From positions 17,670,001 through 17,734,000 of the forward strand of contig OX597824.1 in assembly GCA_951406725.2 (NCBI GenBank): 64,000 nucleotides of DNA, written 5' to 3'. The notes under the pieces are model-generated. The model was not told where the DNA came from. It saw nothing but the letters and a program-made list of their open reading frames with translations, and made no database searches. This DNA is from Octopus vulgaris. Its lineage: Eukaryota. The number at the start of each line of letters is the position of its first letter. The stretch's first letter is position 1. Positions 24,048 through 58,332 of the stretch are shown in pieces. Position numbers and translations under genes: made by a program.

Positions 24048-24125
24048 TTAAGAGATGAGGAATTATGTGCATTATTTACATTATTTACATTCGATGGATA
24101 TTTGTCCTCATCTTGTTTGTTGTTG

Positions 24126-24170
24126 ACTCAACGTTCCGGCTGATATACACTCCAGCCTTCTTCAGGTGTC
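24126..24170 (-). ncRNA. Hammerhead, mutated (GGAA in place of GAAA)
   Basis: GACAC-CUGAAGA-A-GGCUG...CAGCC-GGAAC-GUU-GAGUC. Confidence 0.65.
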
Positions 24171-24392
24171 TTGGGAAAATTTCGAACCTGGGTTCTCATT
24201 GCTAAGGTATTTTTCAATGTTATAATAATAATAATAATAATAATAATAATAATAATAATAATAATAATAATAATAATAATAATATTATTATTATTATTAT
24301 TATTATTATCATTGCTATTGCTTGGAATCTTGGGGTTTGTAGCCCGCGCTCTTACCCATTACGCCATATGTCCAGGTTCGAAATTTTCCCAA

Positions 24393-24438
24393 GACACCTG
24401 AAGAAGGCTGGAAGGTATATCAACCGAAACGTTGTGTT
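24393..24438 (+). ncRNA. Minimal type I hammerhead
   Basis: GACAC-CUGAAGA-A-GGCUG...CAACC-GAAAC-GUU-GUGUU; palindromic stem III AACGUU. Confidence 0.8.
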
Positions 24439-24485
24439 AACAACAAACAAGATGAGGACAAATATCCGTCGAATGTAGATAATGT

Positions 24486-24768
24486 AAAGGCAAAGTCGAC
24501 CTCTGCGGAATTTGAACTCAGAACGTAACGGCAGACGAAATACCTATTTCTCTACTACCCACAATGGGCTAAACACAGAGAGGACAAACGGGGAAAACAA
24601 ACGGATTAAGTCGATTATATCGACCCCAATGCGTAACTGGTACTTATTTAATCGACCCCGAAAGGATGAAAGTCGATCTCGGCGGAATTTGAACTCAGAA
24701 CGTAAAGACAGACGAAATACTGCTAAGTTTTTCGCCCGGCGTGCTAACGATTCTGCCAGCTCGCCGCC
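24486..24768 (-). mobile_element. SINE family A, full copy (24545-24768) plus partial copy (24486-24544)
   Basis: Match to 49083-49313. Confidence 0.9.
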
Positions 24769-27700
24769 TTAACGTCTTATTAATTATAATAACGATAATA
24801 AGAATAATAATAGCAACAACAACAACAACGACATAAATGAGAACAACAAGAATGATAGCAACAACAAACAGTAATAAATATAATGAATGCGCAAAGCTAA
24901 TAAAAATCAGCGATAGTAGCTCTGTGCCAAAGAGAACATCTGGGAAATAATATTCTGCCATAATTTTCCGTAAAGATTATGATGATTAAAGATAAGTATT
25001 AGGGCGTTGTATTTAATTACTGCTTATATTTAATTGCTCCAGTAAAGGAAATATCAATCAATACAGCTAGATGAAGATGTTGCCGAGATGCTGTCACTGT
25101 TAAATATTTTACAGATCGCACAAATTGATAACTGTTTGAAGTTCAAACCTGCGACTACCAACCAATGCTGGCTGGGAGGTGTCATTTCTATACACTGCTT
25201 CACTCACGTACTATCAGTGCACTTCAATACATACGTACACACACACACACCGAAACATATACATACATACATACATATATATATATGCATATATATATAT
25301 AAATATATATATATATATATAATATATTATATATATATATATACATATACATATACATATATATATATATATATATTCATATATAAATATATGTATATAT
25401 ATATATGTATATATATATATATATATATATATATATATATATATATATATATATATATGAGTATATATATATATATATATATATATATATATATATATAT
25501 ATATTCATATATGTATATATATATATATGTACACCCACTCACCCACACACACACACACACACACACATATATATATATATATATAGGGAAAGAGAGGGAG
25601 AATGTCTATATAAAAAGAAGCATATATATGCACATACGCACATAAATATGATTATATAAACGATGCATATAAGTGTGTGTTTGTGAGAGAGGGAGGGAGT
25701 GAGAGATAATTTATATTAAACTCACACATATTTGTATACACACACATGCTCATATATAATTTATTTATATATCTGTAAATCTATCTATATACATATATAT
25801 ATATATATATATATATATATGTGTGTGTGTGTTTGTTGGTTGTGCGTGTGTATATATATCTACCTTCCTTCCTCTCTCTCTCTCTTTTTCTCTGTATCTC
25901 TCTCTTTCGCCTTCACTCACTTCCGTTATCTTTCTTTACATATAAACATACGAACCTGTGTGTGTGTGTGTGTGTGTGTGTGTGTGTGTGTGTGTGTGTG
26001 TGTGTGTGTGTATGTGACTATAAACTGTATATAGAGGACTTCATGTTGCTATAAAGAACTTGTAAGTAAATGTTTCCTCCATATATCGTTGAGCATATGT
26101 GGGTGTTAGACGGACATTTTAAAATCGGTCCCAATATATCTATAAGCAAAAAAAAAATATGGTGATGTTGGAGTTTCTCGTCAACACACTTGGGATTAGA
26201 TGCCTACTTAGAGCAAGAAGACCTCTGGTGTTATTATGGTCGTAACCAACATTTCGTTTTGTTTCCCATGATGGTGGTATTAACTTCCGTTAAAGTTTCA
26301 TGCGATGTGTTTATATATAAATCAAAGGAGGTACCATTTAAATTACAAACTCACCATCTTTCTAAGCATATGTGCATGTATGCAAGTAAATATGCATGTA
26401 TATATGCATGTATATATTATGTATGTATCTATCTATTTCTCTCTCTCTCTCTCTCTCGCTATATATAATATCTTATAATTATGAGTATAATTATAATTTG
26501 GGTTCAGCAAAGATTTGCTTTACCACATACCGAACTTACTTCAGAAATAGCAGCCAAAGAACCTTAGCTATTTCTTCTACTATAAGAAGAAGCTATAAGA
26601 AGAAATTAATTAATTAATTTTACCCTTTATTATTATTGATTATATATATATATATATATATATATATATAGAGAGAGAGAGAGAGAGAGAGAGAGAGAGA
26701 TGGATATATACATACATATATATCCATCTCTATATAGAAATATATATCTATCTTCCAATCTATTTATATTTGTATCTACCCATTCATCTAACCACTCATA
26801 TCTCCCTCCAACCCTTTAGTGGTCTATCTTTCATTCTACCCATCTGTCTATAAACCTGTTTGTCTGTCTGTCTGTCTGTTTGCCTGTCTGTCTCTTGAAC
26901 CTATTGACAAACAATTAAGCAGATGTGTAATTTGAAATTTGTTCTTGCCATTTCAGCGGCATTGATATATATATATATATTATCCAAGGTGTTGATTTAC
27001 ATGGTGACGGTCCGTAACTTAAGGGAAATCTGCATCTTCGTTTCATGTAGGTCGATTAATGGCAGAGAATGTCTTCAGTAAGTACAAGTTATGTTCATTG
27101 TGGTCGATTTAATCAATTATTCTCCCTCAAAACAAAGTCATATCTGATTGTCTGGCATAAACTTCCGGAGACCTCCATATATGTGGGTTACATCTCCCAA
27201 AATACATTGTAGACAAAAAATACCCTAGGAATATACATTTCAGTTTCTGGAACTTTCGAACAACAATTACTTATTACATATAATACATACAATTGGAATA
27301 TGGAATTCTTCTTGTCTATATAATGCCAGGAGGAAGTTATTTTTAGATCTATTTTATTACATTCTTGGCCTTTTGGTTCAGTTTCCTGTCGTACTGTTAA
27401 AGGAAAAATCAATAAATACCAGTAAAATATTAGTGTCAGTTTTATCTAATAAATTTTTTTTTGTTGCAAGTATCATCATCATGATGTTTTATTTTCGAAT
27501 CAAATTCTTTTTGCAGTATAACTATGTATTTTTTTCTAACCCTGGATAGCCAGATAAACCTCAAGTTATGCATGATAGTAACTAAGAAGTTAAAACTGCA
27601 AAAAACGAAATGGGAGTTTCGTTTGCAACTTCTCAGTGAATTGTCTGCACTCGAATTACAAATGAATGATTTATAACACAGGCACGGGTTAAGCAATAAA

Positions 27701-27992
27701 AAAAAAGGTAAGGAGAGATGTTCTGGACAAGACCCTCGGCTCTTGTATTCAAATTAATTATTTCAGTATGAGGAATGCCAGGCAGCGTCAAAATGCGAGG
27801 TGGGTAAAGCAAGATACTTGTGAGTTATACAATCCAGATATCTGATCTTCCTTCTGTCTCACAAATATCTTAAAGTTAATAAAAATGAAGATATTATCTA
27901 TTCGTACATGCTTCTAAATATCTAAAATTGCAGACATTTTCATTGTATTAACAGTAGACCATTGCCAATTGCGTCTCTGAATGATTCCAGAG

Positions 27993-56503: not shown

Positions 56504-56694
56504 TATATATATATATATATATATATATATATATATATATATATATATATATATATATATATATATTTATATACAAAGACAGAGAGGATACGAAGATGTA
56601 ACACTCTTCTCTACTTACAATCAATAAGTATGTAAGTATGTAGTTCATATGAAACTAATACCAAGTAATTTGATTAATATCGGCAAATTCACAT

Positions 56695-56748
56695 AGCTTC
56701 GTGCAATGGCCATACTCGATAACGAGGGGGCAGCCATAATAATGTATG
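56695..56748 (+). mobile_element. 54-bp 3' stub of the RTE-like element
   Basis: Reverse complement of 53707-53760. Confidence 0.85.
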
Positions 56749-57257
56749 CACAAGTATATAATGTATATTTTGAATATTTGAAAATATTTATTTATCTTTT
56801 CATCGGGCACTGATATTCTGTTCACAATCTAATAAAATATCATCCAACTTAAAGTTATTATACTAAATCAGCTACTTCATTTGTTTCTACTATCTATTTG
56901 TATTATTTCCTCTGCTATATATATATATATATATATATATATATATATATATATATATGCAAATATTCTATAATTATATACATAATTATTATTAGGGGTC
57001 AGCTAATTGCTTCACCACGTACATATATACATACATATATATACATATATATATACAAACATACACACCGATATGTTTGTATATATATGTATGTATATAT
57101 ATATATATATGTCTATATATACATATATGTATATATATATATATATATATATATATATATATATAATATTAATTCGAGACAAAACCACTATTTTGCAAAT
57201 CAAACAAGGAAAGACTTAATCAATACATAAAAAATTTAATATAAAGTAAATAAACCG

Positions 57258-57301
57258 CCACTACAATTGTTTCATGTCTTCAAATGACATTCGTCAGGTG
57301 G
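57258..57301 (-). ncRNA. Minimal type I hammerhead ribozyme
   Basis: CCAC-CUGACGA-AUGUC-AUUUGAA-GACAU-GAAAC-AAUU-GUA-GUGG. Confidence 0.9.
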
Positions 57302-57352
57302 ATTTCGATCTTCTAATCAGTTTAAATTAAAACTGATTAGAAGATCGGAAAT

Positions 57353-57396
57353 CCACCTGACGAATGTCATATGAAGACATGAAACAATTGTAGTGG
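57353..57396 (+). ncRNA. Minimal type I hammerhead ribozyme
   Basis: CCAC-CUGACGA-AUGUC-AUAUGAA-GACAU-GAAAC-AAUU-GUA-GUGG; all core nucleotides and three stems present. Confidence 0.9.
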
Positions 57397-58332
57397 CGGT
57401 TTATTTACTTTATATTAAAATTTTTTATGTATTGATTAGGTCTTTCCTTGTTTGATTTGCAAAATAGTGGTTTTGTCTCGAATTAATATTATATAATATC
57501 ATACTATAAAATTGGATTTAATCCTAAATCTGATTTTCTCCCTGTAAATTTGGATTTATTCCCTAATATTTATTATATATATATATATATATATATATAT
57601 ATATATAATATGTTTTATATATATGTATATATATGTATATACATATATATATATACATGTACGTATATATATATATACATATATGTATATATATACATGT
57701 ATATAAAACATATATATATATATATATATATATATATATATATATATATATATATATATATATATACGGTACACAGAGTCTCCTTCACTTAATAACGGTA
57801 CCTACATAAGATTTGTGGCAGATTTTCAAACTTACAAACTTCGTCGTGAAGAATTTCCCTCTCTCGTATTATGCGATCACGAATCTTACTAATACTTCAA
57901 CATTGTAACCTTACAATAAATCCTCCAATATCTTTTACACATCTTTGATGATTATAATTCGAAATAAGCTTTGGAGATGATCTGAGTATTGACCTATTTT
58001 GCGATAATATTTCACAAACATTGTAATATTTTCTTCTATGCAGAATTAATAAAAAAAAATTTCTTGTAATAATCTTAACAGCTTGAAAATTACTTTTATT
58101 CATTTATTTGTTTCGATCATTGGAATGCGGCCATGCAGTGGCAGTGTATCGTAAGTTGTTTTTGTTAGTCGATCAAATAGAATTCAGCAGTTTAAGTTTT
58201 ATTCCCGTGTATGTTTCGTTTTAGTTTATTAGTCTGGGGGGCTCGGTTAAGAAACACACAAGAAGCCAGCAAGCCAACACCTGCTAGCAGACTACGAGAT
58301 ACAAACAGAAATACGCTTCAGCAGAATTTCAT

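What the first reader, a model, noticed from the sequence alone, without database searches (positions are those of the whole stretch)
24076..57575. All ribozyme fold-backs share head-to-head polarity with 3' ends facing outward
Seen: in 24076, 30771, 55236 and 57161 the left motif is on the minus strand and the right on the plus strand; 16701 and 51513 are compatible. Arms are often unequal and most end in (TA)n. Known: PLEs often have inverted 5' pseudo-LTRs. Inference: either both ends of a break in (TA)n prime reverse transcription and the cDNAs join, or the cDNA folds back to prime the second strand. The result is short non-coding hairpin elements that look like MITEs but derive from RNA. 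In read-through RNA the antisense arm would mask the ribozyme and create ADAR/Dicer substrates.
Basis: partly seen in the sequence, partly recalled or inferred. Interest (0 to 1): 0.75.

Follow-up and report, generated by a model that had tools for sequence, protein, structure and literature searches.

The report
Twin-primed spliced Penelope ribozyme hairpins
Most of these ribozyme hairpins are single insertions of Penelope-like retrotransposons, and in one family most are intron-less copies of the element's short 5' leader; they likely form when both nicked DNA strands prime reverse transcription at two different start sites on a sense RNA, which would explain how these elements make their inverted repeats.

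Summary
The head-to-head polarity is real for five of the six named sites and holds genome-wide for four families (34 of 34, 10 of 10, 10 of 10 and 3 of 3 close pairs). 'All' is too strong: 30771 looks like two separate copies of a mostly solo family, whose only close pair among 100 listed matches is tail-to-tail. The polarity itself is published for Penelope-like elements (PLEs). New here: the parent of the 57161 family is a full PLE with Hydra-clade motifs, and the short hairpins carry its exon1-exon2 junction across a 1,078-bp GT-AG intron (271 spliced against 75 unspliced exact matches). Exactly one orientation carries the 3' tail (50 of 51 loci), either arm can be the shorter, the arms agree in subfamily and splice state, junctions are mostly unique, and ~12-bp target duplications flank whole hairpins in two other families. 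This favours twin priming from both nicks at two start sites on sense RNA over snap-back and over the published antisense self-priming model. ADAR/Dicer effects are untested.

The parts
57155..57323 (-). 57161 family, inverted arm without tail; spliced leader copy with hammerhead at 57262-57297; ends in (TA)n
57324..57575 (+). 57161 family, tailed arm: exon 1 remnant, exon junction at 57343|57344, hammerhead 57357-57392, ~80-nt tail 57500-57575, then (TA)n
55090..55410 (-). 55236 family, inverted arm carrying the tail (about 55090-55235); old, degenerate hammerhead
   Evidence: tail read by eye against family copies
55411..55618 (+). 55236 family, arm without tail; degenerate hammerhead core from 55475; ends in (TA)n
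24048..24366 (-). 24076 family long arm: tRNA-like head (24315-24366), (AAT)n, hammerhead with one core change, partial tail (24048-24075); pLTR of a Penelope/Poseidon-like PLE
24370..24488 (+). 24076 family short arm without tail; hammerhead 24398-24433
16633..16644 (.). left 12-bp target-site duplication of the 16701 hairpin
16645..16769 (-). 16701 family inverted arm: tailed, 5'-truncated, no ribozyme
16771..16912 (+). 16701 family arm without tail; minimal hammerhead variant (U3/A8 core) at about 16784-16819
   Evidence: motif read by eye, not found by the scan
16913..16924 (.). right 12-bp target-site duplication of the 16701 hairpin
51509..51791 (+). 51513 hairpin: left arm inverted with the ribozyme region missing, right arm with hammerhead variant at 51697-51728; no tail recognised on either arm
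30772..30965 (-). copy of a very abundant, mostly solo hammerhead family (motif 30867-30894); probably its own insertion
31010..31125 (+). older, diverged relative of the same family; probably a separate insertion
30520..30726 (+). single-armed element of another hammerhead family (motif about 30588-30617), tail-to-tail with the 30772 copy across (TA)23
5394..5622 (+). older relative of the 57161 family: very short inverted arm without tail, then a truncated tailed arm; no ribozyme left
   Evidence: read by eye

Best explanation
The true hairpins are single Penelope-like element insertions with one tailed and one tail-less arm, and they likely arise by twin priming: the element's endonuclease would nick both target strands about 12 bp apart and each nick would prime reverse transcription on the same sense RNA, one at the tail end and one at the internal pLTR end. 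Both cDNAs run towards the RNA's 5' end, stop independently and are joined at their 3' ends by microhomology or short templated fill-in, which puts 5' ends in the centre and 3' ends outside. Overlap of the arms requires the outer cDNA to displace the inner one (inferred). Because the two start sites also lie near the 5' end of the element's mRNA, priming there copies only the spliced leader (about 260 nt from the likely transcription start), which gives the short non-coding hairpins; priming at the downstream pLTR gives long, intron-keeping copies with the same polarity. Shown: anatomy, polarity, one-tail rule, splice junction, target duplications, arm concordance. Inferred: nicking, priming, displacement, joining, one RNA rather than two.
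For: Polarity: 34 of 34 close opposite-strand pairs among the first 100 of 826 exact matches; 51 of 51 two-orientation loci among those 64 loci. One tail: 50 of 51, 25 left and 25 right, none with two; 22 of 22 in the 16701 family, three being one duplicated insertion; 17 of 19 in the 24076 family, two with no tail aligned. Not nested: the tailed arm is shorter at its 5' end in 15 loci, the tail-less in 11; L045 has non-overlapping arms. Same template: 254 agreements against 19 disagreements at five subfamily sites, 45% disagreement in shuffles; both arms spliced in 29 loci, both unspliced in 7, mixed in 0 (five of the 36 called by eye or). Sense template: GT-AG intron of 1,078 bp in parent L144 removed exactly; 271 against 75 exact matches, both subfamilies in both states; spliced arms' 5' ends peak at the A of an initiator-like TCACTTC (21 arms). 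Target duplications: 18 of 22 (4 of them plain (TA)n; control 7%) and 11 of 19 (control 4%). Junctions: 60 different among 65. A purified PLE cuts and extends both strands, starts at two RNA sites that bracket the tail, and is predicted to be a dimer (PMC11167929).
Against: No biochemistry here. One RNA cannot be told from two sister RNAs by these data. Later asymmetric deletion at a palindrome centre could fake non-nested arms. Ten rare substitutions are shared by both arms of a locus (85 are in one arm only), which copying of one cDNA or gene conversion would also give. One 57161-family locus (L085) has no tail on either side, 13 of 64 loci have one orientation only, and the 51513 hairpin shows no tail. 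The 30771 family is nearly always single-armed and gave a tail-to-tail palindrome, so the rule is family-specific. Target duplications cannot be read for the 57161 family, which sits in (TA)n. The in vitro paper found priming without homology to the target, whereas the internal site here resembles (TA)n. No spliced transcript joined to the ORF was seen.
Confidence: 0.6

Rival explanations
1. Both nicks prime, but on two sister RNA molecules held by a protein dimer, each subunit fixed to one of the two start sites.
For: Explains overlapping arms without strand displacement; subfamily agreement follows if one source locus dominates in a cell; a dimer is predicted in PMC11167929.
Against: Spliced and unspliced arms never mix (0 of 36 loci), although D. 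virilis tissues hold both RNA forms (PMC2377424); a symmetric two-RNA complex does not by itself give one tail in 50 of 51 loci.
Confidence: 0.2
2. Snap-back: one cDNA starts at the tail, folds on itself and copies itself as far as the internal TA-like site; later deletions at the centre make the arms uneven.
For: Gives the one-tail rule, equal splice state and shared variants at once; templated fill-ins at 20 of 65 junctions; 10 shared rare substitutions.
Against: It needs the tail-less arm nested in the tailed arm; 15 of 26 asymmetric loci are the other way round, and some tailed arms are little more than the tail (L045, L088; L169, L172), in a family whose copies are 92-98% identical to the parent.
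Confidence: 0.12
3. Self-priming on an antisense transcript, the model proposed in PMC3846280 to explain head-to-head repeats and intron retention together.
For: Published; the long copies here keep the intron.
Against: Most arms that cross the junction are exactly spliced (271 against 75), which needs a sense template; long unspliced copies follow the same polarity and tail rule.
Confidence: 0.04
4. The palindromes move as units (MITE-like DNA transposons or one mobile master hairpin).
For: Short, non-coding, hairpin-shaped, often in TA; a few junctions recur two or three times.
Against: Ends are unequal, target duplications are about 12 bp, 60 of 65 junctions differ and the recurring ones are in different subfamilies (read by eye); three identical 16701-family loci share their flanks, so they are a segmental duplication; an RT-endonuclease parent exists.
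Confidence: 0.02

Closest known systems
PLE insertions with an inverted 5' pLTR and a one-sided tail (PMC8557442 Fig. 2 legend; PMC3846280; PMC2377424 Fig. 1C legend)
   Same: Head-to-head inverted copy at the 5' end, tail at one end only, target duplications of about 10 bp, initiator-like motif and intron in the pLTR, hammerhead in the pLTR.
   Different: Here most copies are pLTR-only hairpins with no ORF, many are exactly spliced, and the tail rule, non-nesting and template agreement are counted over dozens of loci.
Hydra clade of C-terminal-endonuclease PLEs (PMC8557442, section 11)
   Same: Parent ORF has KWK (for RWK), DKT, CxCx5C, CxxC and CxH motifs, a hammerhead and (TA)n targets.
   Different: Unit is 5.55 kb rather than under 3 kb, tail about 80 nt rather than 30-40; no tree was built.
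PAc (Poseidon of Anolis) in vitro mechanism (PMC11167929)
   Same: Both strands cut and extended; two RT start sites bracket the tail.
   Different: That paper does not use the two sites to explain inverted repeats in the parts read; its sites lie inside the ORF, here both lie upstream of the ATG.
L1 twin priming (recalled, no paper read)
   Same: Two nicks, two cDNAs on one RNA, joined head-to-head by microhomology.
   Different: In L1 the inner primer site is variable and the two parts do not overlap; here the inner site is fixed and the arms usually overlap, giving a palindrome.
Non-LTR retrozymes (bioRxiv 10.64898/2026.07.22.740005; first fifth read)
   Same: Short non-coding hammerhead repeats derived from PLE pLTRs.
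   Different: Those are tandem arrays with a proposed rolling-circle route; these are dispersed inverted pairs or solos, and 5' ends map to a likely transcription start rather than the ribozyme cut site.

Membership tests
Penelope-like element (EN+), 57161 family | Single ORF with RT and C-terminal GIY-YIG endonuclease | tested here: met
   L144 ORF 2689-5099, broken by one frameshift; RT-like YRDD and YIGST motifs; Atlas neighbours at 0.95-0.98 carry RVT_1 (40-49% of members) and GIY-YIG (21-47%). A direct Pfam scan found neither; PDB search found nothing.
Penelope-like element (EN+), 57161 family | Partial tandem forming pLTRs, with hammerhead and 5' UTR intron | tested here: met
   L144 and L145
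Penelope-like element (EN+), 57161 family | Optional 3' tail and inverted 5' copy | tested here: met
Hydra clade PLE | RWK, DKT, CxCx5C, CxxC and CxH motifs; (TA)n targets; hammerhead | tested here: met
   Read from the translation against PMC8557442 section 11; KWK stands for RWK
Hydra clade PLE | Generally short (<3 kb) | tested here: not met
   ORF 2.4 kb but unit 5.55 kb with long UTR and intron; a tendency in the paper, not a strict criterion
Hydra clade PLE | Placement in the clade by RT phylogeny | not tested
   No reference set was fetched
Penelope/Poseidon clade, 24076 family | Thumb and GIY-YIG coding sequence directly upstream of the pLTR; 30-40 nt tail | tested here: inconclusive
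   Broken endonuclease-like frames upstream in L200 and L201, clade likeness recalled; tail about 30 nt; no full ORF found
Minimal type I hammerhead ribozyme | Core, stems I and II, short palindromic stem III | tested here: met
   not matched by Rfam at gathering score
Minimal type I hammerhead ribozyme | Self-cleavage | not testable with these tools
   needs an assay
MITE (DNA transposon) | Fixed terminal inverted repeats, shared interior, fixed short target duplication | tested here: not met
tRNA-derived SINE (24076 family) | tRNA-like head with A and B boxes transcribed by Pol III | tested here: inconclusive
   Box-like motifs by eye (consensus recalled); ARAGORN found no tRNA in 30 of 30 loci; the head lies inside a PLE pLTR behind an initiator-like motif
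Non-LTR retrozyme | Tandem arrays of hammerhead units | tested here: not met
   2 of 64 loci have a tandem extra arm, none an array

The most novel reading that the evidence does not exclude
PLE inverted repeats are in general made by programmed twin priming: a dimer holds one sense RNA at two fixed start sites and each subunit primes from one nick. The same start sites in the spliced 5' leader yield 'strong-stop' copies that are inserted in large numbers, so many dispersed minimal hammerheads and MITE-like hairpins in animal genomes are processed PLE leaders, and PLE 'intron retention' reflects only which pLTR is primed, not an antisense template.
Probability: 0.4. Interest if true: 0.8.

Novelty: new variant of a known kind. 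Interest (0 to 1): 0.6.

Why it matters
How PLEs make their tandem and inverted structures and why they keep introns are named as open questions (PMC8557442). The standing proposal for head-to-head repeats is self-priming on antisense RNA (PMC3846280). Exactly spliced arms rule that out for the short copies, and the one-tail, non-nested, same-template pattern links the two RT start sites found in vitro (PMC11167929) to the inverted structure in a way an existing assay can test. It also shows that thousands of MITE-looking hairpins in this genome are retrocopies, which matters for repeat annotation and for any count of ribozymes or double-stranded RNA sources.

Tried and rejected
Rfam at gathering score: no match. 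Pfam and PDB sequence searches of the parent ORF: uninformative. A search for longer 5' sequence with a flank-derived pattern found only its own locus, and the pattern mostly picked junction microhomologies. An extra G at the transcription start (cap signature) is suggestive only: 7 of 16 arms after leaving out five that were selected with the G in the pattern, and four of the seven can be microhomology. The junction classes were wrong (script error) and were replaced, which still misplaces a few ends. Ribozyme cleavage as the source of 5' ends: rejected, truncation points are scattered and only a few arms start near the cut site. RNA evidence: no RNA holder on record was listed; three runs guessed to be RNA have contigs on exon 2 and the ORF and none on the intron end that the fourth run covers, a weak hint only, and no contig showed the spliced leader joined to the ORF. 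The motif scan is noisy in random DNA (25 hits in 540 kb, 5 and 5 in controls), so families were counted by alignment. tRNA genes: none. Gene conversion as the cause of arm agreement: unlikely as main cause, since 85 of 95 rare substitutions are in one arm only. Earlier findings of the scan: none returned. Not computed: scripted tail counts for the 55236 family and an A-to-G spectrum of the arms.
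Full report
Setting. The window is G000:C11:17670001-17734000 of a 2.8-Gb animal assembly, AT-rich and full of microsatellites. The six named sites belong to six different repeat families, so each was tested separately.

Observation. Local inverted repeats exist at 16701-16915, 24075-24488, 30820-31122, 51509-51791, 55222-55628 and around 57161. Minimal type I hammerhead motifs lie at 24398 (+), 30867 (-), 51697 (+), 57262 (-) and 57357 (+); those of 16701, 55236 and the second arms of 24076 and 30771 are degenerate or variant and were read by eye. 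In all six the minus-strand copy is on the left. Genome-wide, position-ordered exact-match lists give: 57161 family 826 matches, 34 of 34 close opposite-strand pairs head-to-head among the first 100; 16701 family 2,208 matches, 10 of 10; 24076 family 3,983 matches, 3 of 3, and 18 of 18 two-orientation loci among 38 aligned; 55236 family 10 of 10 pairs among 40 scored loci. The best-hit list gave 31 of 31. The 30771 family differs: 2,370 matches, one close opposite pair among the first 100, and it is tail-to-tail (L202); 38 of 40 aligned loci are single-armed, and the window's two arms agree at only 80 of 100 bases. I read 30771 as two insertions. The 51513 family was seen at five loci only.

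The parent. Walking upstream from long copies led to L144 (C11:53736500-53746499), a partial tandem: pLTR, ORF 2689-5099 with one frameshift, long TG-rich UTR, second pLTR, (TA)n. The ORF has RT-like and GIY-YIG-like motifs and the Hydra-clade marks listed in PMC8557442 section 11; its Atlas neighbours carry RVT_1 and GIY-YIG in a share of members, while Pfam itself did not score it. The pLTR holds a 1,078-bp GT-AG intron just upstream of the hammerhead. The short hairpins, including both arms at 57161, read straight from exon 1 into exon 2. Exact patterns give 271 spliced and 75 unspliced junctions, with both main subfamilies in both states; close pairs were head-to-head in 15 of 15 (first 100 spliced listed) and 7 of 7 (all 75 unspliced, plus 3 tandems). 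Spliced arms end between about -16 and -32 from the junction, with a peak at -26 (21 arms), the A of an initiator-like TCACTTC; PMC3846280 notes a like motif in rotifer pLTRs. So the short elements are processed copies of the 5' leader. For the 24076 family, broken thumb and endonuclease frames lie directly upstream in L200 and L201, so it too is a pLTR, with a tRNA-like stretch inside.

Anatomy of a hairpin. In the 64 loci behind the first 100 matches, 51 have both orientations, all head-to-head, and 13 have one (two of the 13 have a small opposite fragment). In 50 of the 51 exactly one orientation carries the ~80-nt tail, 25 left and 25 right; the other stops at a fixed TA-like site and merges with (TA)n. 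The rule also holds in 22 of 22 two-orientation loci among 37 examined of the 16701 family (eight were picked as known pairs; three are one insertion in a segmental duplication) and 17 of 19 of the 24076 family. Long intron-keeping copies up to 6.9 kb follow it (six loci). The tailed arm is the 5'-shorter in 15 loci and the tail-less in 11. Arms agree at subfamily sites 254 to 19 (45% disagreement when shuffled; most of the 19 are at one homopolymer edge), share 10 rare substitutions and differ at 85. Splice state agrees in 36 of 36 loci where both arms cross the junction (29 spliced, 7 unspliced; these pool three samples of different ascertainment, and one ambiguous locus was left out). Of 65 simple junctions 60 differ: 27 microhomologies, 5 blunt, 33 insertions of which 20 match nearby arm sequence (a few ends are misplaced by the script; 7 long or unspliced loci left out). 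Whole hairpins are flanked by target duplications, mostly 12 bp, in 18 of 22 loci of the 16701 family (4 plain (TA)n; control 7%) and 11 of 19 of the 24076 family (control 4%); the window's 16701 element has one.

Mechanism. A target duplication around the whole unit means one event with staggered nicks. With 3' ends outside, each strand reads from its nick as the cDNA of one arm, so two primed cDNAs joined in the middle give the polarity directly. Snap-back needs the second arm nested in the first, which fails in 15 of 26 asymmetric loci unless later deletion is invoked. Antisense self-priming cannot give a spliced junction. Two start sites used once each, with agreement of subfamily and splice state, fit one RNA held by a dimer; PMC11167929 reports cutting and extension of both strands, two start sites bracketing the tail and a predicted dimer. 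Overlap of the arms then needs strand displacement (inferred; lack of RNase H in PLE RTs is recalled). Single-armed copies with a 12-bp duplication (L301, L307) would be events where only one nick copied RNA. Two sister RNAs remain possible.

Consequences for RNA. In silico the 57161, 24076 and 55236 hairpins pair the ribozyme with its antisense arm; in 16701 and 51513 it stays outside the long duplex. Nothing here tests transcription, editing or small RNAs.

What is known. PMC3846280 (parts 1-4 of 5 read) states that head-to-head is the most frequent arrangement, that the tail is on one inverted pLTR, and proposes antisense self-priming while not excluding an unspliced sense template. PMC8557442 (passages and section 11) draws the inverted 5' copy and one-sided tail and calls the mechanism undefined. 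PMC11167929 (parts 1-2 of 4). PMC2377424 (passages): most D. virilis transcripts are spliced, copies keep the intron. PMC4209133 (passages): minimal hammerheads in pLTRs, intron end next to helix I. bioRxiv 2026.07.22.740005 (part 1 of 5). PMC6962438 (passages): not relevant. Searches (listings) found no paper that describes spliced genomic PLE copies or twin priming for PLEs. The library lacks most subscription papers; the 2003, 2005 and 2006 PLE papers, Repbase reports and all supplements were not seen and may hold such a model.

Verdict. The polarity is real but known and not universal. The added value is the spliced-leader origin and the counted rules, which argue against a published model and for programmed twin priming. 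New variant of a known kind; interest 0.6.

Noticed in passing
window 24315-24366 (-); L171, L184, L185: The 24076-family pLTR holds a tRNA-like stretch with A/B-box-like motifs, then (AAT)n, then the hammerhead; just upstream sits nearly the same initiator-like motif as in the unrelated 57161 family. Pol II or Pol III use is open.
   Followed up: partly
L202 (C1:91212257-91212428): A perfect tail-to-tail palindrome of the 30771 family, 3'-truncated, with (TA)n at both outer ends; a different route, perhaps true self-priming at a 3' end.
   Followed up: partly
window 30726-30772 and 5622-5664: Different hammerhead families meet tail-to-tail across one (TA)n array; they pile up in each other's flanks.
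   Followed up: partly
window 22685-22821 (-), 32722-32858 (+), 33441-33560 (+), 59881-60020 (-), 34654 (+): Further single-armed hammerhead-like elements; several families have a U3/A8 core, and the 30771 family varies at core position 6.
   Followed up: partly
window 59024-59293 and 46794-46952: Inverted repeats of similar size with no clear hammerhead; family and polarity unknown.
   Followed up: no
24076-family loci L160-L189; 57161-family L005, L011, L013: Variable numbers of a short unit at the RT start sites (a 9-nt unit in one family, a triplet in the other), like slippage or telomerase-type repeat addition at initiation.
   Followed up: no
spliced arms ending at -26: An extra G often precedes the likely transcription start where the genome has C; possible cap signature, confounded by microhomology.
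   Followed up: partly
L144:4130-4400: Asparagine-rich stretch between RT and endonuclease, as described for rotifer Penelope ORFs in PMC3846280.
   Followed up: no
L110, L012, L072, L078, L091: Odd centres: 2.2 kb of shuffled UTR and intron pieces, captured unrelated DNA, a nested copy of another family, and internally deleted forms joining the ORF start to the downstream pLTR.
   Followed up: partly
16701-family L291, L292, L294, L320; 55236-family L266, L272, L274, L282: Longer copies have a fixed upstream sequence ending in a splice-acceptor-like AG close to where the short copies begin, so these families may also have an intron before the hammerhead.
   Followed up: no
L308, L310, L311 (C1:21.1-22.3 Mb): One hairpin with its flanks present three times: a segmental duplication, one copy inverted.
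   Followed up: yes
window 476-1136: Three copies of a SINE-like repeat in alternating orientation form 71% inverted pairs, unrelated to the ribozyme hairpins.
   Followed up: no
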